Source of the DNA: Escherichia phage ES
Direction: 5' to 3' (one strand)
Sequence record: OR466728.1
Length of the DNA: 48,315 nt
Position numbers and translations under genes: made by a program. Under the pieces are notes generated by a model. The model worked only from the letters and a program-made list of their open reading frames with translations, did no database searches and was not told where the DNA came from. Position 1 is the first letter of the stretch. Each line of letters starts with the position of its first letter. Below, piece after piece: positions 1 through 48,160 of the stretch.

Positions 1-211
1 GATTAATGGGTCGTAGTTGCAAAAGTTGCACTCAAGAATTTATCGCGTCGGTTACTGCTAAGTCCTCAGAGGAAGCAGTAGCGAAAGTTAAGGTAATGTC
101 TGGTGCCGACCCGGATTACCACAAATTCCTAGTAGCTTACGTTCGTGAGCGAAAGTAAAAGAAGTTCTACTCTCTGTTTGTTTCATATCTCTCGTTGTTG
201 TTCGATACTTC

Positions 212-11564: not shown

Positions 11565-11582
11565 TAGCACTTTTTGTTAAAG
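11565..11582 (+). promoter_or_regulatory. dyad box copy 3 (TAGCACTTTTTGTTAAAG)
   Basis: TATAGT 22 nt downstream, then CATCGAAAAG; ATG of 11641 is 76 nt downstream. Confidence 0.5.
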
Positions 11583-22833: not shown

Positions 22834-22851
22834 CTTTAGCAATTCGTGCTA
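22834..22851 (-). promoter_or_regulatory. dyad box copy 4 (minus strand TAGCACGAATTGCTAAAG)
   Basis: on minus strand followed by TATGAT at about 22 nt and CATCGAAAC; 62 nt upstream of lipoprotein ATG. Confidence 0.5.
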
Positions 22852-24487: not shown

Positions 24488-24968
24488 TTGATAAATTTAA
24501 TGATATCTTTAGATATGATGGTGAAAAGCTGTACTATAAAAACTGGGTAAACGGTAGAAGTAAGTCTCTTGGACTAGAGGCTGGTAGCAAACAGAATGGT
24601 TACTTGAAAGTTACAATTGGCGGCAGAAATTATAAAGTTCATAGAATTATATGGGAAATGGTTAATGGTGAAATACCTGATGGAATGGAATAGATCACAT
24701 AAATCACGTAAAGGATGATAATAGGATTGAGAATCTAAGGCTGGTAACTCACAAGGAAAACTCAAGAAATAGGAAAAAGAGGTCAGATAACTCTTCAGCA
24801 ACACAGGGCGTTTCTCTGCATAAGATTACAAGGAAGTGGCAATCTTATTGCTCTGATAATGATGGAAAAATTATGTACCTTGGATTATTTGAGGATATTA
24901 ATGATGCTATTGATGCTAGGGTTAAGTTCGCCTCACAATGTGACTTCCATGAGAATCATGGTAAATAG
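24484..24968 (+). pseudogene. HNH endonuclease, frameshifted (1-nt deficit near 24689-24691)
   Basis: N-part VHRIIWEMVNGEIPDGME in frame 1 and C-part IDHINHVKDDNRIENLRLVTHKENSRN in frame 0; paralogue of intact 41210-41707. Confidence 0.6.
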
Positions 24969-24983
24969 CAATAATTGCTAAAG
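24966..24983 (+). promoter_or_regulatory. dyad box copy 5 (TAGCAATAATTGCTAAAG)
   Basis: TAG is the stop of the HNH C-terminal frame; TATCAT about 22 nt downstream; ATG of 25039 is 73 nt downstream. Confidence 0.45.
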
Positions 24984-25038
24984 ACAAATCTTATAGGTGG
25001 GGTATCATTACCCCATAGAAACTAAAGAGAGATAGGTA

Positions 25039-28756: not shown

Positions 28757-28774
28757 TAGCACGAATTGCTAAAG
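28757..28774 (+). promoter_or_regulatory. dyad box copy 6, orphan (plus orientation between two minus-strand genes)
   Basis: exact TAGCACGAATTGCTAAAG; no plus-strand gene or good -10 downstream; overlaps 5' leader of the tail fibre gene. Confidence 0.4.
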
Positions 28775-29764: not shown

Positions 29765-29795
29765 TAAAAAAGGATGTACCGATTATGGCACATCC
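29765..29795 (-). terminator. hairpin plus T-run (minus strand) after HTH gene
   Basis: GGATGT/ACATCC stem with 12-nt loop, 6 A on plus strand (T-run on minus). Confidence 0.35.
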
Positions 29796-29801
29796 AATCC
29801 T

Positions 29802-30275
29802 TTACTCTTTAGCTTTTCGTGCTGCTTCGTTAGCGGCCTTAATCTTGCGCCATGATCGACACTCTGGCTTGGTGGCTAGCTCTGCTTCAGTAACTACGCG
29901 AAGCATATGACGCTTCTTACATCGAAGTGTTAGCGGCTTACCGTTTCCGTCGAATTGCAGGTCTGGTCGGCAGAACGTAGCTCGAAATCCTTCCTTATTT
30001 CTCTTATACGCATTGTGAGCTTTCTGCGCTCCTCGAGCCGAAATCATCCCGCGATCAAACCATTGCTCTACAGTCTGGTGAGATACGTTTAACTGCTTTG
30101 CGATGTTCGCCTTTGTTCCATAGAAATCAAGAACCATCTCCAGGCGAGCACGTAGCCCAGCCTTTACCTCATCTTTCAATACGTAGTAGCCTGACGGTCG
30201 TTTGCGTTGCTTCTTGTCTTGTGTGCGTACCGTTCCGTTATTGCCGTTAATAGTTCGTTTGTCAATTTCACACAT
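29802..30275 (-). CDS. HTH DNA-binding protein (candidate transcription regulator)
   Basis: 157 aa, basic, HTH-like GTKANIAKQLNVSHQTVEQWFDRG; RBS GAGG; a dyad box overlaps its 5' region. Confidence 0.5.
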   Translation of the reverse strand: MCEIDKRTINGNNGTVRTQDKKQRKRPSGYYVLKDEVKAGLRARLEMVLDFYGTKANIAKQLNVSHQTVEQWFDRGMISARGAQKAHNAYKRNKEGFRATFCRPDLQFDGNGKPLTLRCKKRHMLRVVTEAELATKPECRSWRKIKAANEAARKAKE

Positions 30276-30288
30276 CTCATTACCTCAA

Positions 30289-30306
30289 TAGCACTTTTTG
30301 TTAAAC
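30289..30306 (+). promoter_or_regulatory. dyad box copy 7 (TAGCACTTTTTGTTAAAC) in divergent region
   Basis: TATTAT about 21-22 nt downstream; helicase ATG 83 nt downstream; 14 nt from the ATG of the divergent HTH gene. Confidence 0.5.
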
Positions 30307-30371
30307 AATAGGTTCGATAATTGATATTATACAGCAATGCAACGAACTAACAAACTGTCAGGATACTTAAA

Positions 30372-33300
30372 ATGCTTCCAGTAGAGCGCTTAGTGGCAAA
30401 CTTTGATCAAGAGAAAATCAAACAGATTCAGAAAGATTACCAGTTTGGAGACATAACTCCTTACGAATTCCAGTGTGTAACATTTGACGCAATTGGTAAG
30501 GCTATTGGTAAGTACGAGGCTCCATTCATCGCAGACCTGTCTGTATCTGCTGGTAAAACAATAATTCTTGCCATGATTGGGAAAAGAATGGAGCAACTTG
30601 GACTTCCTTATATGGTACTGTCTCGCCAGTCAGAGATTATCAGCCAGAACGCAGAGGAACTCCGTAACTTCGGTATCCGTAATAGCGTCTATTGCGCTGG
30701 ACTTAACGTTAAATCAGTTTACTACCCAACCATAGTGGCTAGTGAGGGTACAGCTGCCAATGGCCTGTTTAAGGGGCTTGGTGACTATGTTCCTGCTGTT
30801 ATCGCGATAGATGAGTGCTTAACTGGAGACACGATGATAACCACCGATTCAGGGATGATGAGGATTGATAGCGAAGACCTTATCAATCATAAAATAAAAT
30901 GCATAAACGAAAGCACTGGTGATTACTTCTATCATAAGCCAAAAAGAGTTTTTACTAATGGTGTAAGACATGTATCATCAATTAAATTAGAAAGCGGAGA
31001 GGAAATAAAATGCACGAGTACACACAAACTTTATTCGAACGGCTGCTGGGTAGGAGCGGGAAAACTTCGTATTGGGATGAATCTGTCGCTAGACGGCTCG
31101 CAGGACAAATTTACGAAAAAGCTCCTGCGTGCAAGTGTGGCTGTGGTGAAAAAGTTATGCCGCATTCAAGCAAGGGGTTAGGCGTACTTCTTAAGAACCC
31201 TTTCGATTTCTATTTGGATTACAGAACGGGGCATCATAATTCAACCGTCAACCCATCAATGGAGGTTGATGACTTTTTACATCAAAACATTCTTGCGGCA
31301 ATGGCTGGTGATGGTTGCTTGATTAAAAATACAGAAAAAGGAACGCATAGGCTATCTTGGAATATGGGAAATAAGGAGCACGCACTAAGCAAGGTTGAAA
31401 GGTTTGCAAAACTAAACCCTAGATACAGGGAGAAGAAAAACCCTGGATTTGGCGACAACTGGTTTTGCGTATCAACATCATGTACGAAAGTTCTGGATTC
31501 ATATGCTGATAAGTACGGAAATTCTAAGGATGGTTACGATATTGGAAAGATATGCAGAGAGCTTGATCCAGTTGGTTGGGCTGCTTACTTTGGTGATGAT
31601 GGTCATTGCACTGTAAGCTCAGGGAAGAGGGTTGTAGAAATCCACACCGAATCATTTAGCAGGCGTGAAGTTCAATCAGTAGTTGATGCGCTAATAGCAT
31701 TTATTGCTAATGACGGAGTTAATGTTAGAAGCTATATTGGCGGCAAGAAAAAGAGAGAGCTTTACTCAGTATCAATAACAACGAGGTCGGCACAAGATGA
31801 GTTTTTTAAGAGAATTAGTAAGCACATGGAAAATGGCGTGGAATACAAAATCAAGCAAAATTAAAGACATCTCACCCATTGGCAAGGAACTTGTTTGGGA
31901 TATAGAGATGCCTGAGCACCATAATTTCATTGCTGACGGGGTCGTGGCACATAATTGCCACATGGTGGACCATATGGATATCGTAGAAGCTGAAGAGAAT
32001 GAGGAAACATTCGAGCAGATGAGCACGAAGAAGGGTGAGATGGTCTTTAAGGATGGTGTGAATACCGGGCTTCTTGGCACTGGTCGCGCGCAATACACGT
32101 TAATCATTACCGAAATGAAGCGTCGATGCAAGGAGAAGTACGGTCGCGAACTTCGTATCTTTGGGTTAACTGGTAGCCCGTACCGTAACAACGACCACAT
32201 TGTAGTTAGTAACCCAAATGTCCGTGGATTCTGGCGCAAAACTGTAATGCAAGTGCCAACCAGCTACCTTGTTGACTTGGGGTTCGTTGTTCCTACTGTC
32301 TACGGTGAAGTTGGTGATTTGGGCTACGACCTTAGTGAGTTCACTCCTGATGGAAGTGATGGGGTTAAGGACTTCAGCAAGAAAGAAATGGATGCGATGG
32401 CTGCAAAGATTCACGAAAACCAAACGATGACACAAAAGATAATGGGATTTGCTGCTAGGTTTATGGAAACAAGGAATGCTGCATTGGTAACTTGCGCTGG
32501 CAAACAGCATTGCGAGGAGGCGGCAGCCGCACTTCCAGAAGGTGTTACTTGGGCGATAGTTACCAACTCCACTGGTGATAAGAAGCGTAGAGAGATACTT
32601 GAGAAGGCAGCCAGCGGAGAATATAAGTTCATATTTCAGATTGGTTGCCTCACAACTGGCGTAAACTGCCCCCCGTGGGATACAAGCATTATCCTGAGGA
32701 AGGTTGGTAGCATTACTCTACTCATTCAGTTGCTTGGTCGTGGTATGCGTATCCTTAAGAAGAAGCACAAAGAAGCTGGAATGGTAAAAGATGACCATGT
32801 TGTTCTTGATTTTGCCGGGACGCTTGACGATATGGCAGAACTCTACTTCGACCCAATTATAGAAGAGGTTCAGGACCAGAAGTTTAAGTCATCCAGGAAA
32901 GGGGGTGATGAACCAAGAATTTGCCCAGCATGTTCTTATGAGAATTCTCCTTTCGCACGGCGCTGTAATAATGTGATTGACGGTAAACGATGCGAGCATT
33001 TTTTTCAGTTCCGTCTTTGCGAAGATATTGAGGACCCGCAGACGAAAGTTATCGTTAAGAAAGGTTGCGGAGAGAAAAATGACGTTGCAGCAAAGAACTG
33101 CCGCTGCTGCGGAGAGATGCTGATAGACCCAAATGCAAAGCTATCTGGAAAAATGTATCGGAAAGGGGACTGGTTGAGAGTTTATGACTTCAAGATTGGG
33201 TTGACAAAAAACCAGTCAGGGATCGTTGCTTCATATGAGGTAATGGCTCATAGTGGAGATAAGTTCCGAGCTTATGAAACATTCTTCCCGGAGTCAGACC

Positions 33301-33507: not shown

Positions 33508-33927
33508 ATGAAAATCACAGACAAAGGTGATTACCTCGAGTTCTATGGCGGACCGGTGAAGTCATGCCCAAAGGAAGACGATGAACAAATCTTCTGCTCT
33601 GATTGGGTGAAATACAACTATCCGCAGATTGTTTACTGGCACACGATTAACGAAAATAAAAAGAGCATTGGTCAAGCAATAAAAGACCAAGCCAAGGGGC
33701 TTCTCAAAGGTGTGTCAGACTGCTTATTTCTGATACCTGAGTCATTGCGTGGCGGTTATCCATTTGGCGCCATAGAGTTAAAGAGGGCTGGTAAAACGCA
33801 AGCAAGCCCAGTTAGCAATGAGCAAAAGTCATTCCTAAAAAGCGTAAGGGAATCAGGCGGTTTCGCAGCGGTGGCTTATGGAAGAGAGGGTTTTCTTGCG
33901 GCATTCGCAGAGATGATAAGAAAATAG
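33508..33927 (+). CDS. VRR-NUC-like nuclease (putative)
   Basis: 139 aa; ...D...IELKRAGK... PD-(D/E)XK-like core; RBS GGAGG. Confidence 0.45.
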   Translation: MKITDKGDYLEFYGGPVKSCPKEDDEQIFCSDWVKYNYPQIVYWHTINENKKSIGQAIKDQAKGLLKGVSDCLFLIPESLRGGYPFGAIELKRAGKTQASPVSNEQKSFLKSVRESGGFAAVAYGREGFLAAFAEMIRK

Positions 33928-33942
33928 CACGAATTGCTAAAG
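33925..33942 (+). promoter_or_regulatory. dyad box copy 8 (TAGCACGAATTGCTAAAG)
   Basis: TAG is the stop of 33508-33927; TATTAT 22 nt downstream, then CATCGAAAC; ATG of 34006 is 81 nt downstream. Confidence 0.55.
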
Positions 33943-34005
33943 ACGAATTGGTGAGTTGGTGTATTATCAACTCATCGAAACGAAACAAAGAGAGAGATAA
34001 ATAAA

Positions 34006-36659: not shown

Positions 36660-36677
36660 TAGCACTTTTTGTTAATA
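36660..36677 (+). promoter_or_regulatory. dyad box copy 10 (TAGCACTTTTTGTTAATA)
   Basis: immediately after the TAA stop of 35526-36659; ATG of 36733 is 73 nt downstream; -10 weak (CAAAAT). Confidence 0.4.
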
Positions 36678-36732
36678 AAGCCTCAAAGGATTGAGGCAAA
36701 ATGAATAAACGATAACGATATGAGGAGTTGTA

Positions 36733-38822: not shown

Positions 38823-39205
38823 AGGCTGCGTTAATTGCTGCGGTAATTATACTTTCTGGTTGCTCGGCAACATCTGCGCTGACCGGGTTGATTGGTAGTA
38901 AGCCAGAGATTAGCGCTCAAGCAGGTGCGGAGAATAACAAGGTTGGAGTAGGGCTAACTAATAAGGTTGATTCAAGTTCCAGCGCAAAGGCTGAAGTGAA
39001 GAACTCTAAGGTTGACACTCTTGATAGTTCAAGCGGTAAAAAGACTTCTGATAACTCAATCAAGGCATCAACAATCACGGCTGAGAAGATTGAAATCACC
39101 AACAATGACTCGTCTGCAATCCCGTGGATTGGGAGTGGAATCATGTTTTGCGTCATCATCATTCTGCTCTTAATGATATTCAGGAAAAACAAAAAAGCCC
39201 CGTAA
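38819..39205 (+). CDS. unimolecular spanin (T1 gp11-like)
   Basis: N-terminal lipoprotein signal with lipobox ILSGC and C-terminal TMD GIMFCVIIILLLMIF in one 128-aa protein. Confidence 0.65.
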   Translation: MKAALIAAVIILSGCSATSALTGLIGSKPEISAQAGAENNKVGVGLTNKVDSSSSAKAEVKNSKVDTLDSSSGKKTSDNSIKASTITAEKIEITNNDSSAIPWIGSGIMFCVIIILLLMIFRKNKKAP

Positions 39206-39555: not shown

Positions 39556-41139
39556 TTACCCCAGCAATCGTGGATTAATGTAAATTTTATCACCAATCAG
39601 GCATGTGTAGTTTTTCTCATCAAGCATAGGAATCAAGTGGTCCTTAATGCGAGTCATAATTCCAGCCTGAGCTTCAAAAGGTTTAACCTTGCGTGCAGCC
39701 TCATACAACGAGCGAACACCAACAACACCTTTACCATTCTTGCCCTGCTTAATCAGGATATCAACCAGCTTGTTCATCTCGGCATTGTCACCAGCATGAC
39801 CAGCAGCACTAGCTGATGACAAATACGTCTTGCTTAGCTCGTTGAAAATCATAACTGCCTCCTGCATTGTCTCCAGTTCAATCTCTCTGGACTTCTGCGG
39901 GCTAGAGCCAGTTTGTGAGGACCAGTTACGAATAACGTGAAGTACGGAAGCGATGCGGATTGCTTGCTTATCAAACTTACCAAGAGCACCGCGCAACATT
40001 GTGTGAGAATACTTGCCACCATCACCAAGATGAGGCTCCATCTCCTGACGTGCTCGGTTAAGGTAACGCATTGATGATGCGCTTACTGTTAGCTTAACCT
40101 CTACTTCATTCATAATCTCATGAACAAGACGGAAGTAGTCCGCTTTCAGGCCGCCATCAATAGCCTCGTATGTTGAATCACCATTAGCATCAACAAATAC
40201 GCGGTCGCCAAGGAATGACTTTTCGCGCACCAGAAGGAAACGCTCAGATACACCAATACCACGCGCACCAGCATTCATAATGGCATTGATTGTTTCATCC
40301 TGAGCAATTACGGAGATGCATCCCATAGCCACAAAGCTCATGTTATTTTCTGCGTTCGCACGGGCAATTGACACATTACCTGCATCCCATGCTTTCAGCA
40401 CGAGCTCGCTGTTCGTTTTCTTAGAGCCATCACCATATGTCATACCCAACAATGAGTTGACGCTAGTTGCCTCATCCGAGATTACCGAGAAGTTACCCTG
40501 GCGGTTGTTGATTCGCGCAAGGCCTTCTGGTGTAGTATCGGAGACAGGGAATACGATATCGCACAGCTTCTCAAGTTTTTCCTCCAGGTCTTCTTTATCT
40601 TCAAACAATGAAGCCATTTCAGAAGGTGATTTCTCCTGCTTCATCTCTTTAGCCAGGGCGGACAGTTTAGCCATAATCTTTTTTCGATCACGTTTACGTA
40701 CTTCATTCAACCGCTCAGTCTCAGCAATCATTGGCGCGATTGCCAGTGAGTTAATGGCTGACTTACCAGTTGAAGGAGGCTGGCTCGTCACGACATAAAG
40801 AGATGTCGGCTGCTGGGTTCCGTGATACTCAACAGTGAAGCGCCCAAGCATTGCAGCGGACACGCAGCCCAGAAAGTGCATATAAGCAGATGACTCAGGG
40901 AACTGAACTGAGCGAGCGATGTTGGCTGACAGCTTGCCAACAATATCAATGTCATTACCGAGTGAGATTACTGGATATTTGTAATTCCCAGCATCAATCT
41001 CGACAGGTGCTTTCCAGAATGATTGAGACTGGCGATAACCATTTGCATTAATTGCTACGCGAAGTGGTGGAAGGTTGTCTGTAGCTGCAATTGCCATAAC
41101 TTGTTCAACAGATAGTTTATCTTCGTTGAAATCAAACAT
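39556..41139 (-). CDS. P-loop ATPase, replication-associated (putative)
   Basis: 527 aa; Walker-A-like VTSQPPSTGKSA; own promoter box upstream. Confidence 0.35.
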   Translation of the reverse strand: MFDFNEDKLSVEQVMAIAATDNLPPLRVAINANGYRQSQSFWKAPVEIDAGNYKYPVISLGNDIDIVGKLSANIARSVQFPESSAYMHFLGCVSAAMLGRFTVEYHGTQQPTSLYVVTSQPPSTGKSAINSLAIAPMIAETERLNEVRKRDRKKIMAKLSALAKEMKQEKSPSEMASLFEDKEDLEEKLEKLCDIVFPVSDTTPEGLARINNRQGNFSVISDEATSVNSLLGMTYGDGSKKTNSELVLKAWDAGNVSIARANAENNMSFVAMGCISVIAQDETINAIMNAGARGIGVSERFLLVREKSFLGDRVFVDANGDSTYEAIDGGLKADYFRLVHEIMNEVEVKLTVSASSMRYLNRARQEMEPHLGDGGKYSHTMLRGALGKFDKQAIRIASVLHVIRNWSSQTGSSPQKSREIELETMQEAVMIFNELSKTYLSSASAAGHAGDNAEMNKLVDILIKQGKNGKGVVGVRSLYEAARKVKPFEAQAGIMTRIKDHLIPMLDEKNYTCLIGDKIYINPRLLG

Positions 41140-41194
41140 TACTTCTCTCCGTATTGTTTCTGAGCGGATATTATATCAACAGCCGCTTATAATA

Positions 41195-41212
41195 CATTAT
41201 CAATTTGTGCTA
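41195..41212 (-). promoter_or_regulatory. dyad box copy 12 (minus strand TAGCACAAATTGATAATG)
   Basis: TAG is the stop of HNH gene 41210-41707; perfect TATAAT 22 nt downstream on minus strand; 56 nt upstream of ATG 41139. Confidence 0.5.
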
Positions 41213-41707
41213 TTTGCCATGATTTGGGTGATAACCCAGCCTCACCTCTGCAACAATTCTTGCCTCACATGCAGAGATAAAGTCATCAAAAAAACCAAGG
41301 TGAACAGTCTTTCCACCACTCTGTATTGAGGCCCTCCACTTACCTGTTCTTTTGTATATGGCGACTCCAGTTACACCACTTTTATTATCAAACCTTAATG
41401 ATGAGTTCATTGAATTCACTTTTTGGGTAACAAGCCTTAGATTTTCAATCCTATTGTCACGCCTATTTCCATTTATGTGGTCTATGAATAGACAATCAGG
41501 TATGTCTCCATTAGTCATCTCCCATATAATTCTGTGAGCCATTGTGTAGCCGATTCCCTTATTGCTAACCCTAACGTACCCGCTTGTTGTAACCTCCGTG
41601 TTAACTGGCTTATTTGCATATTTTGTATTCCAAGATTGAGTTCTATCTGACCTCTCCTTTCTGTACAAAACTGAATCTTTTATATAAAAAATTTCATTCC
41701 AGTTCAT
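41210..41707 (-). CDS. HNH homing endonuclease
   Basis: AHRIIWEMTNGDIPDCLFIDHINGNRRDNRIENLRLVTQKVN; ATG 41707 overlaps upstream stop (ATGA). Confidence 0.7.
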   Translation of the reverse strand: MNWNEIFYIKDSVLYRKERSDRTQSWNTKYANKPVNTEVTTSGYVRVSNKGIGYTMAHRIIWEMTNGDIPDCLFIDHINGNRRDNRIENLRLVTQKVNSMNSSLRFDNKSGVTGVAIYKRTGKWRASIQSGGKTVHLGFFDDFISACEARIVAEVRLGYHPNHGK

Positions 41708-42090
41708 GAGTATTTTGCTTCCATTTTGTATGTGCCACACAATGTTTTAAAGCCAACGTCATCCCTGTACAGCTGCCATGCAAAGCCACCCTCATCATAG
41801 ATGTACCCCGCTTGCTGGCCCAGTCCAGAGTGAAGGTTTACGATATATCTCTTGCCTTCTTTGAAGTCTTTCTTAACTCCTGACTTATGGTTAACATTAG
41901 TGCAGTAAAGCGTCTTCGTCTTAATGTATTTCCCACGCTCTTCAAGATTAATCCACTTGCCATTTTTCTTGATTTGCTCAAATTCAACTTCCTCAGCGAC
42001 ACCGTTAACCCACTGGTGAATCTTTTTAACGCGAGCTTTAAACAGTTTGTTATCGTTGCTAATCCAATTTTTGGTTATCGTAGTAGTCAT
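41704..42090 (-). CDS. hypothetical protein
   Basis: 128-aa ORF, RBS AGAGAG upstream of ATG 42090. Confidence 0.45.
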   Translation of the reverse strand: MTTTITKNWISNDNKLFKARVKKIHQWVNGVAEEVEFEQIKKNGKWINLEERGKYIKTKTLYCTNVNHKSGVKKDFKEGKRYIVNLHSGLGQQAGYIYDEGGFAWQLYRDDVGFKTLCGTYKMEAKYS

Positions 42091-42127
42091 TATTTTACTC
42101 TCTTCGTTGTTTCATTTCGATGAAATA

Positions 42128-42154
42128 ACTATACAGGAAAAGCCCCGAAGGGCT
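42128..42154 (-). terminator. minus-strand terminator hairpin embedded in a promoter spacer
   Basis: on minus strand AGCCC/GGGCT stem then TTTTCC, immediately followed by TATAGT. Confidence 0.45.
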
Positions 42155-42170
42155 TTAGCAATTCGTGCTA
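42153..42170 (-). promoter_or_regulatory. dyad box copy 13 (minus strand TAGCACGAATTGCTAAAG)
   Basis: overlaps the NSTNC C-terminus of the 53-aa minus ORF; TATAGT 22 nt downstream; ATG 42090 about 63 nt downstream. Confidence 0.5.
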
Positions 42171-42316
42171 TTTCGTGCCTTCTCAATCGCCTTCAGCATA
42201 ATCTCGTGAGACTCAAGCAAGTCCTCGTTGAACCAGTCTCCGCAAGGCCACCCCTTCCCACTGTAAGCGGCAACAACGCTCAAGTCGTAATAGTTAATGT
42301 CAGATGGTAGAAGCAT
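42155..42316 (-). CDS. hypothetical small protein (C-terminus NSTNC)
   Basis: 53-aa ORF, TAATG coupling with the upstream gene. Confidence 0.35.
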   Translation of the reverse strand: MLLPSDINYYDLSVVAAYSGKGWPCGDWFNEDLLESHEIMLKAIEKARNSTNC

Positions 42317-44011: not shown

Positions 44012-44029
44012 ATAGCACTTTTTGCCTAA
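44012..44029 (+). promoter_or_regulatory. dyad box copy 15 (TAGCACTTTTTGCCTAAC)
   Basis: CATAAT 22 nt downstream, CATCGAAAC; ATG of 44093 is 81 nt downstream; spacer contains ATGCCA/TGGCAT hairpin. Confidence 0.5.
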
Positions 44030-44092
44030 CGCAATAATGCCATGGATGGCATAATTATCTCATCGAAACGAGAGGCACAAAGGAAAACGAAA

Positions 44093-44523: not shown

Positions 44524-44541
44524 TAGCACAAATTGTTAAAC
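44524..44541 (+). promoter_or_regulatory. dyad box copy 16 (TAGCACAAATTGTTAAAC)
   Basis: starts 2 nt after the TGA of 44337-44522; TATAGT 22 nt downstream; ATG of 44599 is 75 nt downstream. Confidence 0.5.
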
Positions 44542-44598
44542 CTTCCGCAAGGCCATTTGATATAGTGGCCTTATTAAAGCAAAGCAAGAGAGGGTGGG

Positions 44599-45059: not shown

Positions 45060-45202
45060 TTTACATTCACACTTACTATACAGGAAAGTTTAACAGCGTT
45101 AAGCACGTGCGTGTGCATGAAACATACGAATCGGCACATAGTCAGCTTAGAGTTCTTGGTGGAACAATTACAATGTGTGAAATTGTTGAAGAATACAGAT
45201 AG
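45056..45202 (+). CDS. hypothetical small protein
   Basis: 48-aa ORF, ATGA overlap; its TAG stop is the first triplet of a dyad box. Confidence 0.35.
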   Translation: MIYIHTYYTGKFNSVKHVRVHETYESAHSQLRVLGGTITMCEIVEEYR

Positions 45203-45217
45203 CACGAATTGCTAAAC
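45200..45217 (+). promoter_or_regulatory. dyad box copy 17 (TAGCACGAATTGCTAAAC)
   Basis: CATAAT 22 nt downstream, CATCGACAAC; spacer hairpin GCCGGAGTAATCCGGC; ATG of 45275 is 75 nt downstream. Confidence 0.55.
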
Positions 45218-45274
45218 AATCGCCGGAGTAATCCGGCATAATTACTACATCGACAACGAACGAGTAAATGAAGA

Positions 45275-46420: not shown

Positions 46421-46561
46421 ATGGATAACTACGAAACACCAAGCCAGTGGGCTAAACGGATGATGGATGAGGCTAAGACTGGCGAGGTTGCCATGATGTA
46501 CTTCGAGCTGATGAATCTATGGAAGGAGCGTGAAGATAAAATAAACAGCACGAATAGCTAA
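46421..46561 (+). CDS. hypothetical small protein (C-terminus NSTNS)
   Basis: 46-aa ORF overlapping upstream stop; its 3' end is encoded by a dyad box. Confidence 0.35.
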   Translation: MDNYETPSQWAKRMMDEAKTGEVAMMYFELMNLWKEREDKINSTNS

Positions 46562-46563
46562 AC
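46546..46563 (+). promoter_or_regulatory. dyad box copy 18 (CAGCACGAATAGCTAAAC, degenerate)
   Basis: perfect TATAAT 22 nt downstream; spacer hairpin GGCA/TGCC; ATG of 46618 is 72 nt downstream. Confidence 0.45.
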
Positions 46564-46617
46564 ACCAAAGGCATGGATGCCATATAATTTATATATCAAA
46601 CAGCGAGAGGTTAGAAA

Positions 46618-47675: not shown

Positions 47676-47751
47676 GTTCTGCTGGCGTAACAGGATAACG
47701 CAAAGACCTCCTAAGTCTTAGTTACTGGTTCGAGTCCAGTGCGGAACACCA
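47676..47751 (+). tRNA. tRNA-Arg (anticodon CCT)
   Basis: hand-folded cloverleaf: 7-bp acceptor GTTCTGC/GCGGAAC, D-arm GCGT/ACGC with GG loop, anticodon loop CTCCTAA, T-arm ACTGG-TTCGAGT-CCAGT, discriminator A, encoded CCA. Confidence 0.8.
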
Positions 47752-47782: not shown

Positions 47783-47995
47783 ATGAAAAAAGTAACAATC
47801 ATCGTAAAAGATATTGAAAGCGGCACTTCCCAAAAATTCAACGCAACACTTGACCGTGAACATAAATGCTTAAAGGGTGTGATTGGCGGGGTTTCAGTTA
47901 GCGCGGATATTAAAGGTTATCTCGAGCTTGAAAGAGAAATTCAAAACTATAGCAATCAGAGCGGGAAGATAAAAAATGCAGCTCTGGGATGTTAA
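47783..47995 (+). CDS. hypothetical protein
   Basis: 70-aa ORF, RBS GGGGGA; last gene before the junction with position 1. Confidence 0.45.
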   Translation: MKKVTIIVKDIESGTSQKFNATLDREHKCLKGVIGGVSVSADIKGYLELEREIQNYSNQSGKIKNAALGC

Positions 47996-48004
47996 GCTTT
48001 CAAT

Positions 48005-48160
48005 CTGCTTCCTCTGAGGACTTAGCAGTAACCGACGCGATAAATTCTTGAGTGCAACTTTTGCAACTACGACCCATTAATCGGATTGAAAGCTTAACAT
48101 CCCAGAGCTGCATTTTTTATCTTCCCGCTCTGATTGCTATAGTTTTGAATTTCTCTTTCA
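48005..48160. other. 156-nt fold-back: reverse complement of the end-to-start junction (probable assembly artefact)
   Basis: 48005-48082 is the exact reverse complement of 1-78; 48083-48160 is the reverse complement of 47929-48004 plus CC. Confidence 0.7.

What the first reader, a model, noticed from the sequence alone, without database searches (positions are those of the whole stretch)
42128..42170. Terminator and other hairpins embedded inside the promoter spacer
On the minus strand, box copy 13 is followed at once by an AGCCC/GGGCT hairpin plus TTTTCC (terminator-like) and then TATAGT, so termination of the upstream transcript and re-initiation would share about 40 nt. Several other spacers between box and -10 are short inverted repeats without a T-run: GCCGGAGTAATCCGGC (45218-45233), ATGCCATGGATGGCAT (about 44034-44049), GGCATGGATGCC (about 46570-46581), TGGGGTA/TACCCCA (about 24999-25016). 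The spacer sequences differ but are repeatedly palindromic.
Basis: seen in the sequence. Interest (0 to 1): 0.5.

Follow-up and report, generated by a model that had tools for sequence, protein, structure and literature searches.

The report
Terminator hairpins inside T1-type phage promoters
In this T1-like coliphage, the stretch between a repeated upstream box and the -10 element of many promoters encodes an RNA hairpin that most likely stops or trims the transcript of the gene before it; this packs the end of one gene and the start of the next into about 45 bases, a layout already known in T4-like phages and bacteria.

Summary
On the minus strand at 42170-42128, a box (TAGCACGAATTGCTA) runs straight into a 7-bp stem with a UUCG loop, then a T-run, then TATAGT. 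The window is Escherichia phage AN_ECEAS (Drexlerviridae). It carries about 19 such cassettes: box, 22 nt, -10, CATCGAAAC, RBS.

Across 129 non-redundant cassettes from T1-like phages, the -32..+3 region folds far better than controls. The stems covary. The sense strand folds better than the antisense strand, and GNRA/UUCG loops occur on the sense strand. Hairpins are common when a same-strand gene ends at the box (78%) and uncommon otherwise (31%). They are therefore selected RNA structures that act on read-through transcripts.

Only a minority, including the reported site, have a U-run.

The closest known relatives are the PeSL cassettes of T4-type phages and the "promoter-coupled terminators" of bacteria. 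I rate this a new member of a known kind.

Side finding: the box matches the published marbox consensus (MarA/SoxS/Rob) perfectly, in class II geometry. I found no paper that reports this link.

The parts
42156..42170 (-). Box (TAGCACGAATTGCTA), at -49 to -35 of the predicted promoter. Its last bases hold the TAA stop codon (42157-42155) of the upstream 53-aa ORF (42155-42316, minus strand).
   Evidence: PWM
42139..42156 (-). RNA stem-loop AAAGCCC-UUCG-GGGCUUU. The stem has 7 bp, and its A-tract is the AAA of the box.
   Evidence: -10.4 kcal/mol, z = -1.98; identical hairpin in phage TR1
42134..42141 (-). T-rich tail (TTTTCCTG) between the stem and the -10. The predicted RNA 3' ends fall about 12-14 nt upstream of the next start site.
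   Evidence: geometry compared
42128..42133 (-). -10 hexamer TATAGT, 22 nt after the box.
42114..42122 (-). Conserved start region CATCGAAAT. The predicted +1 is the A at 42121. It is followed by an RBS and the 128-aa ORF 41704-42090 (minus strand).
   Evidence: inferred start site, not mapped
45200..45242 (+). Cassette: box 45200-45214; hairpin GCCGGA-GUAA-UCCGGC at 45222-45237 (GNRA loop), abutting the -10 CATAAT at 45237-45242.
44013..44055 (+). Cassette: variant box 44013-44027; hairpin AUGCCA-UGGA-UGGCAU at 44037-44052, overlapping the first 3 nt of the -10 CATAAT at 44050-44055.
46546..46588 (+). Cassette: variant box 46546-46560; weak hairpin GGCA-UGGA-UGCC at 46570-46581; -10 TATAAT at 46583-46588.
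24966..25016 (+). Cassette: box 24966-24980; 8-bp hairpin at 24997-25016 whose loop and stem contain the -10 TATCAT (25003-25008).
29766..29824 (-). Cassette after the HTH-regulator gene: variant box 29824-29810; strong terminator GGAUGUGCC...GGUACAUCC (29795-29772) plus U6. The -10 CATAAT (29787-29782) sits in its loop. T1 has the same layout with a different stem sequence.
   Evidence: -15.4 kcal/mol, z = -4.84
33925..33973 (+). Cassette: box 33925-33939; arms GAGUUG (33953-33958) and CAACUC (33968-33973) enclose the -10 TATTAT. TR1 has GAAGUG/CACUUC at the same place, which is two compensatory pair changes.
36660..36697 (+). Cassette: box 36660-36674; hairpin GCCUCAA-AGGA-UUGAGGC at 36680-36697, abutting the -10 CAAAAT.
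41163..41212 (-). Cassette: box 41212-41198; arms AGCGG (41187-41183) and CCGCU (41167-41163) enclose the -10 TATAAT (41175-41170).
44524..44572 (+). Cassette: box 44524-44538; arms AAGGCCA (44549-44555) and UGGCCUU (44566-44572) enclose the -10 TATAGT. It belongs to the family used for the covariation test.

Best explanation
**What the site is.** The sequence at 42170-42128 (minus strand) is an intrinsic terminator fused to the next promoter.

**The cassette.** The phage uses a compact intergenic cassette made of:
- a conserved 19-nt box at -51 to -33, which usually contains the stop codon of the upstream gene;
- about 18 nt that carry no promoter information;
- a -10 hexamer;
- a conserved start region, CATCGAAAC;
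- an RBS.

**Why a hairpin fits there.** The box takes the place of a -35 element, so the stretch from -32 to -13 is free to vary. Selection has filled it with sequences that fold into stem-loops in RNA coming from the upstream gene.

**What the hairpins do.**
- Where the stem is followed by a U-run (42156, 29810), or abuts the U/A-rich -10, it terminates or attenuates read-through a few bases before the next start site. The next gene then depends on its own promoter.
- Hairpins that enclose the -10 and end at -1 to +3 lack a U-run. They probably act as weak attenuators, pause sites or 3'-end barriers.

**Shown versus inferred.** Shown: the structures are selected, they are sense-strand specific, and they depend on an upstream same-strand gene. 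Inferred: termination itself, the start site, and the protein that reads the box.
For: - **Architecture.** The window holds 19 oriented cassettes with fixed 22-nt spacing. A PWM of 55 cassettes shows almost no information from -32 to -15.
- **Excess structure.** The mean MFE is -7.8, versus -4.6 and -3.9 in the two controls (p = 8e-20). 50% of sites have an empirical p of 0.05 or less.
- **Acts at the RNA level, on the sense strand.** The sense strand is more stable than the antisense strand (Wilcoxon p = 1e-6). 12% of pairs are G-U. 13 of 39 tetraloops are GNRA or UNCG on the sense strand, versus 1 for the reverse-complement forms of those loops, which would mark antisense folding.
- **Covariation.** In a family chosen only by its loop motif, 91.7% of cells pair, versus 70% in shuffles and 35-45% in slid controls. 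6 of 7 pairs change on both sides, and 0 of 500 shuffles reach the observed value. Orthologous compensatory changes separate the window from TR1.
- **Depends on read-through.** 78% of cassettes abutted by a same-strand ORF have MFE of -6 or lower, versus 31% without one (p = 1e-7). The window's divergent-region promoter at 30289 has no hairpin and the one at 22837 only a weak one (-4.6 kcal/mol). The promoter at 11565, which follows a separate terminator, also has none.
- **Terminator features at 42156.** It has a GC stem, a UUCG loop and a T-run, and it begins right after the stop codon. TR1 has the same hairpin with a longer T-run.
- **Independent annotation.** T1 annotators placed four terminators inside such cassettes.
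- **Experimental precedent.** PeSL stem-loops between -35 and -10, or over the -10, terminate transcription. Promoter-coupled terminators have their termination site about 10 bp upstream of the next start site, and a bound polymerase raises termination.
Against: - There are no transcript 3'-end or read-through data for any T1-like phage.
- Most hairpins (57 of 89 among bona fide T1-like cassettes) are followed by an A-rich tail with a mean of 1.4 T in 8 nt, so canonical intrinsic termination is unlikely there.
- At the orthologous junction, EC3a has no hairpin and Rtp has a different one. The 42156 hairpin is therefore not essential.
- At 42156 the stop codon lies inside the stem base, so a terminating ribosome could melt the hairpin.
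- The upstream-ORF test rests on open-frame length (60 or more codons), not on curated genes.
Confidence: 0.6

Rival explanations
1. The hairpins mainly control RNA stability or processing rather than termination. After read-through and cleavage, they act as 3' exonuclease barriers for the upstream message, or as 5' protective stems for the downstream one.
For: - Most stems have no U-run and end exactly at -1 to +3, just before a conserved, unstructured, A-rich leader.
- The sense-strand specificity and the dependence on an upstream gene fit this reading as well as they fit termination.
Against: - No cleavage site is known.
- The stems are too short (6-12 bp) for RNase III.
- The subset with U-runs, and the T1 terminator annotations, point to termination.
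Confidence: 0.25
2. The palindromes act on DNA. They could be binding sites for dimeric proteins, cruciforms, or non-template-strand hairpins that tune promoter opening.
For: - Many repeats are centred on the -10.
- GAA-type loops also stabilise DNA hairpins (own knowledge).
- Terminator palindromes can double as transcription-factor sites.
Against: - The stem sequences differ from site to site, so no single protein can read them.
- G-U pairs make the antisense strand much weaker (for example -15.3 versus -5.6), which a cruciform cannot tolerate.
- Loops of 6-12 nt extrude poorly.
- Promoters with no upstream same-strand gene mostly lack them.
Confidence: 0.07
3. The cassettes are chiefly recombination linkers for swapping gene modules, as proposed for PeSLs, and the hairpins are a by-product or a recombination signal.
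For: - Homology breakpoints between the window and TR1 or EC3a fall inside cassettes in 10-19% of cases, versus 2.2% at random positions.
- Orthologous junctions carry unrelated spacers.
- G-run/C-run stems resemble those of PeSLs.
Against: - Breakpoints are expected in intergenic DNA anyway, and no intergenic control was possible.
- Recombination does not explain the covariation, the strand asymmetry or the tetraloops.
- This reading is compatible with the main explanation rather than opposed to it.
Confidence: 0.1
4. The palindromes are chance features of short intergenic sequences.
For: Two of the five named examples are no better than shuffles, and enrichment in the strict spacer within the window alone is only p about 0.02.
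Against: The family-wide statistics, the covariation and the context dependence all argue against it.
Confidence: 0.01

Closest known systems
PeSL (promoter-early stem-loop) cassettes of T4-type phages phi1/RB49 (Arbiol et al. 2010, PMC2839356)
   Same: [quoted passage not shown]
- The stem-loop lies between the upstream promoter element and the -10, or overlaps the -10.
- Stems are often G-run/C-run.
- PeSL stem-loops were shown to terminate, and PeSLs are associated with small genes of unknown function and with mosaic junctions.
   Different: - The phage family differs (Drexlerviridae siphoviruses).
- The upstream element is not a -35 hexamer plus an AT-rich tract. It is a 19-nt specific box at -51 to -33.
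- Cassettes also precede structural and replication genes.
- Neither termination nor recombination was tested here.
Promoter-coupled terminators of bacteria (Fletcher, ... Grainger, bioRxiv 2026, 10.64898/2026.08.19.745784)
   Same: - They lie between tandem genes.
- The stem overlaps the -35 region, the T-tract lies just upstream of the -10, and the termination site is about 10 bp before the next start site.
- The 42156 site has exactly this layout.
   Different: - Those are chromosomal, mapped by Term-seq and Cappable-seq, and use ordinary -35 elements.
- Most hairpins here extend over the -10 to the start site and have no T-tract, a layout that paper does not describe.
T1 'transcriptons' and the 21-nt direct repeat of TLS (aaATAGCACnnnTTGnTAAAA; PMC11447400)
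   Same: - It is the same box, reported in TLS, T1, Rtp and Rogue1. [quoted passage not shown]
- T1 late genes have been described as modules flanked by terminators.
   Different: That paper leaves the function of the repeat open (stoperator, enhancer site or UP element). It does not describe the fixed -10 partner, the hairpins between the two, or a marbox match.
Class II marbox promoters of the MarA/SoxS/Rob regulon
   Same: - The box matches gcannwwntgnnaaa at every specified position.
- It is in the forward orientation.
- Its centre lies at about -40, overlapping the -35 position.
   Different: - Binding was not tested.
- The box also contains a TAGCA-N5-TGCTA inverted repeat, which would suit a dimeric phage regulator.
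- This comparison concerns the promoter, not the hairpins.

Membership tests
Intrinsic (rho-independent) terminator: site 42139-42156 | GC-rich stem of at least 5 bp with a 3-8 nt loop | tested here: met
   7 bp (4 G-C and 3 A-U pairs), UUCG loop, -10.4 kcal/mol
Intrinsic (rho-independent) terminator: site 42139-42156 | U-rich tract immediately after the stem | tested here: met
   The run is UUUU CC UG. Three of the U residues can also pair with the AAA of the box. TR1 has UUUUGUUGU. The generic terminator scan did not list this stem, only a shifted 5-bp one.
Intrinsic (rho-independent) terminator: site 42139-42156 | Lies downstream of a same-strand coding region | tested here: met
   The stop codon TAA at 42157-42155 belongs to ORF 42155-42316.
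Intrinsic (rho-independent) terminator: site 42139-42156 | RNA 3' ends and transcript release at the site | not testable with these tools
   Needs Term-seq or in vitro transcription.
Intrinsic terminator: the other cassette hairpins | U-rich tract after the stem | tested here: not met
   Hairpins that span or overlap the -10 have a mean of 1.4 T in the next 8 nt (57 sites). Spacer hairpins have a mean of 3.7, mostly supplied by the -10 itself.
Promoter-coupled terminator (Fletcher et al. 2026) | Terminator and same-strand promoter overlap, with the termination site within 35 bp (mode about 10 bp) upstream of the start site | tested here: inconclusive
   The stem ends at -19 and the T-run reaches -13, which predicts 3' ends about 12-14 nt before the predicted +1. 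Both ends are inferred, not mapped.
Promoter-coupled terminator (Fletcher et al. 2026) | Located between tandem genes, with the stem over the -35 region and the T-tract next to the -10 | tested here: met
PeSL cassette | Repeated cassette of promoter plus stem-loop, with the stem-loop at variable positions relative to the -35/-10 | tested here: met
   description
PeSL cassette | Sigma-70 consensus early promoter (-35 and -10) with an upstream AT-rich tract | tested here: not met
   There is no -35-like hexamer at 16-18 nt from the -10. A specific box with invariant AGCA lies at -51 to -33.
PeSL cassette | Mediates recombination (mini-circles, module exchange) | tested here: inconclusive
   Breakpoints are enriched 5-9 fold in cassettes, but without an intergenic control.
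Class II marbox promoter (MarA/SoxS/Rob) | Match to the marbox consensus gcannwwntgnnaaa | tested here: met
   13 exact matches versus 0.99 expected, and all are box copies. The family PWM agrees at all specified positions.
Class II marbox promoter (MarA/SoxS/Rob) | Forward orientation, overlapping the -35, with the centre between -36 and -55 | tested here: met
   The centre lies at about -40 relative to the inferred +1.
Class II marbox promoter (MarA/SoxS/Rob) | Bound and activated by MarA, SoxS or Rob | not testable with these tools
   No AraC-type domain was found in 20 phage ORFs, so any such reader would have to be a host protein. A phage HTH regulator is an alternative.

The most novel reading that the evidence does not exclude
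T1-family promoters may be class II marbox promoters read by a host MarA/SoxS/Rob-type activator (Rob is constitutively abundant). The embedded hairpins would then be terminators whose efficiency depends on whether activator and polymerase occupy the overlapping promoter. The phage genome would be a chain of self-insulated modules, each switched on by a host stress regulator, with the end of one transcript mechanically coupled to the start of the next.
Probability: 0.25. Interest if true: 0.75.

Novelty: new member of a known kind. Interest (0 to 1): 0.5.

Why it matters
- **Gene packing.** It explains how T1-like phages fit a stop codon, a transcript end, a promoter and a ribosome site into about 75 nt. 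It also explains why standard promoter and terminator finders perform poorly on these genomes.
- **Annotation.** The cassette (box, 22 nt, -10, CATCGAAAC) gives a usable rule for annotating transcription units in a large, therapeutically used phage family.
- **A natural data set.** More than 100 natural variants place a hairpin at graded positions across a promoter. They can be used to test how termination and initiation interfere with each other.
- **A cheap test.** The marbox match gives an inexpensive, direct experiment on what activates T1-type promoters, a question the TLS paper (2024) left open.

Tried and rejected
- **TTGCTA in the box as a -35 hexamer.** Rejected. It lies 22 nt from the -10, and no -35-like hexamer lies at 16-18 nt.
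- **Box as an UP element (suggested in the TLS paper).** Unlikely. It has invariant G and C positions.
- **A phage-encoded MarA-like protein.** Pfam on 20 ORFs found no AraC-type domain. The only HTH protein is the 157-aa regulator. It has no close solved homologue, and I did not pursue it further.
- **Known RNA families.** Rfam at gathering threshold finds only one tRNA.
- **Pairwise substitution counts across all cassettes.** These gave only a modest excess of kept pairs (56% versus about 44% expected), because many of the pairs compared are not homologous. I replaced this test with the family chosen by loop motif.
- **Literature searches.** I searched for marbox or Rob together with T1-like phages, and for transcript maps of Drexlerviridae. 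Neither search found anything.
- **The generic terminator scan.** It lists only 29795-29772 and a shifted stem at 42147-42134 among the cassette hairpins, so it is not a useful detector here.

Full report
**Identity and context**

The window is Escherichia phage AN_ECEAS (PP944860.1, Drexlerviridae, Braunvirinae). It matches 100% over the 10 kb tested and is circularly permuted relative to the record. The finding lies between a 53-aa ORF (42155-42316, minus strand) and a 128-aa ORF (41704-42090, minus strand). Both belong to phage families of unknown function.

**The observation**

On the minus strand:
- The box TAGCACGAATTGCTA occupies 42170-42156. Its last bases contain the upstream stop codon TAA (42157-42155).
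- The stem AAAGCCC/GGGCUUU (42156-42150 with 42145-42139) has a UUCG loop.
- The T-run ends at 42138, followed by CCTG.
- TATAGT lies at 42133-42128.
- The stem folds at -10.4 kcal/mol with z = -1.98.

The four other palindromes exist, with small coordinate corrections. Two of them (44037-44052 and 46570-46581) are not individually better than shuffles. The one at 24998-25015 encloses the -10 rather than lying in the spacer.

**The cassette**

- A search for the box finds 19 oriented copies in the window. All have a -10-like hexamer 22 nt downstream, followed by CATCGAAAC, an RBS and a start codon.
- The same architecture occurs in TR1, EC3a and T1 and in IMG/VR contigs retrieved with the box pattern.
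- A PWM of 55 cassettes gives aAATAGCAC[GT][AT][AT]TTG[CT]TAAA at -51 to -33.
- From -32 to -15 there is almost no information, apart from T at -17 and G at -14.
- TATAaT occupies -12 to -7, and tacc.cAtcgAAAc occupies -6 to +8. Here +1 is inferred to be the conserved A, 7 nt after the -10.
- No -35-like hexamer lies at a usable distance. The "spacer" is therefore the gap between an activator-type site and the -10.
- In 62 of 81 cassettes that follow a gene, the stop codon lies inside the box.

**Are the hairpins more than chance?**

- In the window alone, the strict spacer is weakly enriched (p about 0.02). The spacer plus the -10 flank is clearly enriched (p about 0.0004).
- Over 129 non-redundant cassettes, the mean MFE of -32..+3 is -7.8 kcal/mol. 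Upstream coding windows give -4.6, and shuffles of the spacer alone give -3.9.
- Half of the sites have an empirical p of 0.05 or less. The t-test on z-scores gives p = 8e-20.

**At what level do they act?**

- The sense strand folds better than the antisense strand in every geometric class (overall Wilcoxon p = 1e-6).
- 12% of stem pairs are G-U.
- 13 of 39 tetraloops are GNRA or UNCG on the sense strand. Only 1 has the reverse-complement form that would mark antisense folding.
- For covariation I chose a family by its loop/-10 motif only, so the arms were not selected for pairing. In that family 91.7% of cells pair, versus 70% in shuffles and 35-45% in slid controls. Six of seven pairs change on both sides, and 0 of 500 shuffles reach the observed covariation.
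- An orthologous pair shows two compensatory exchanges: GAGTTG/CAACTC at 33953-33973 in the window versus GAAGTG/CACTTC in TR1.
- Together these results point to selection on an RNA fold (or, less likely, a sense-strand DNA fold) and not on a duplex palindrome.

**Dependence on context**

- Among 113 cassettes in 24 bona fide T1-like loci, 78% of those abutted by a same-strand open frame of 60 or more codons have MFE of -6 or lower. Only 31% of the rest do (p = 1e-7).
- In the window, the divergent-region promoter at 30289 has no hairpin and the one at 22837 only a weak one. The promoter at 11565, which follows a separate canonical terminator, also has none.
- This is what one expects if the hairpins act on RNA arriving from upstream. 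It is not what one expects if they served promoter recognition.

**Geometry and limits of the terminator reading**

Counts are for the 129 non-redundant cassettes:
- In 33 cassettes the hairpin lies wholly in the spacer. The 3' arm typically ends at -12 or -13, so the -10 supplies a U/A-rich tail. Six of these are textbook terminators, with the stem at -32 to -19 followed by a T-run. The reported site is one of them.
- In 60 cassettes the hairpin spans or overlaps the -10 and ends at -1 to +3. The next 8 nt hold 1.4 T on average (measured on the 57 such hairpins in bona fide loci), so these are not canonical terminators.
- 36 cassettes have no hairpin.
- The second strong case in the window is 29795-29772 (minus strand). 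It is a 9-bp stem plus U6, with the -10 CATAAT in its loop, and it lies after the HTH-regulator gene. T1 has the same layout with an unrelated stem sequence.
- The T1 GenBank record annotates rho-independent terminators inside four cassettes: 38973-39001, 39998-40024, 41980-42007 and 35930-35971c.
- At the junction orthologous to 42156, TR1 keeps the hairpin, Rtp has a different one and EC3a has none. Individual hairpins therefore turn over.

**Comparison with what is known**

- The box has been published as a 21-nt direct repeat of TLS, T1, Rtp and Rogue1, with unknown function (PMC11447400).
- PeSL cassettes of T4-type phages combine a promoter with a stem-loop placed between -35 and -10 or over the -10. 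They terminate transcription and mediate module exchange (PMC2839356).
- A 2026 preprint defines promoter-coupled terminators in bacteria. The stem lies over the -35, the T-tract lies next to the -10, and the termination site is about 10 bp before the next start site. A polymerase at the coupled promoter enhances termination.
- The 42156 site fits that layout. The -10-spanning, U-less hairpins do not.
- I therefore rate the finding a new member of a known kind.
- Homology breakpoints against TR1 and EC3a are 5-9 fold enriched in cassettes. This is compatible with PeSL-like shuffling but lacks an intergenic control.

**Side finding**

- The box matches the published marbox consensus gcannwwntgnnaaa at every specified position. 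There are 13 exact matches in the window versus 0.99 expected, and all are box copies.
- No AraC-type domain was found in 20 phage ORFs.
- The box also contains TAGCA-N5-TGCTA, which could suit the phage's 157-aa HTH regulator (phrog_2856). The box lies in the 5' UTR of that regulator's own mRNA. The protein that reads the box is therefore unresolved.
- I found no paper linking T1-like phages to MarA/SoxS/Rob.

**Verdict**

The hairpins are selected, sense-strand RNA structures that act on read-through transcripts. Termination or attenuation is the best-supported role for the reported site (confidence about 0.6). The role of the more numerous U-less hairpins remains open.

Noticed in passing
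window, all box copies (e.g. 42154-42168 minus, 45202-45216 plus): The box matches the published marbox consensus (gcannwwntgnnaaa; MarA/SoxS/Rob) perfectly: 13 exact matches versus 0.99 expected. [quoted passage not shown] I found no paper that makes this link for T1-like phages.
   Followed up: partly
window 30289-30353: The box promoter on the plus strand and a good sigma-70 promoter on the minus strand (TTGTTA-16-TATAAT, 30353..30326), which reads into the HTH-regulator gene, use the same -10 positions back to back. The box lies in the regulator's 5' UTR, which suggests autoregulation if the regulator binds the box.
   Followed up: partly
window 28757-28771 (plus strand): A perfect box points against both neighbouring minus-strand genes (primase and tail fibre). 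It has only a poor -10 and is followed by the primase terminator. This arrangement is conserved in TR1, EC3a and T1, and I have no explanation for it.
   Followed up: no
window, cassettes; e.g. 33925-33927, 42155-42157: The stop codon of the upstream gene lies inside the box (TAG of TAGCAC or TAA of CTAAA) in 62 of 81 cassettes that follow a gene.
   Followed up: yes
window cassettes versus L002 (TR1) and L003 (EC3a): The ends of blastn homology blocks fall inside box cassettes in 10-19% of cases, versus 2.2% for random positions. This is compatible with PeSL-like module exchange.
   Followed up: partly
window +1 to +12 of each cassette, e.g. 42121-42110 minus: The start region A-T-C-G-A-A-A-C is more conserved than initial transcribed sequences usually are. 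The reason is unknown; it could be a start-site context, a translational leader or a processing site.
   Followed up: no
window 47676-47748 (plus strand): A tRNA gene (Rfam RF00005, 58.9 bits).
   Followed up: no
window 1-91, 47929-48160 and 47992-48082: Window 1-91 is an inverted copy (95.7%) of 47992-48082, and 47929-48160 is a 237-nt imperfect palindrome. The last 60 nt of the window are absent from PP944860.1. This could be a genome-end structure or an assembly artefact.
   Followed up: no
window 30372-31181 (plus strand): A 269-aa ORF upstream of the helicase gives weak, sub-threshold intein/HINT matches (E = 3e-4).
   Followed up: no
window spacers, e.g. 2917-2922, 44044-44049, 46574-46579: A GGATGG/GGATGC-like motif recurs about 8 nt upstream of the -10 in several cassettes of this phage and of EC3a. 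It often forms the loop and 3' arm of a weak 4-bp hairpin.
   Followed up: no
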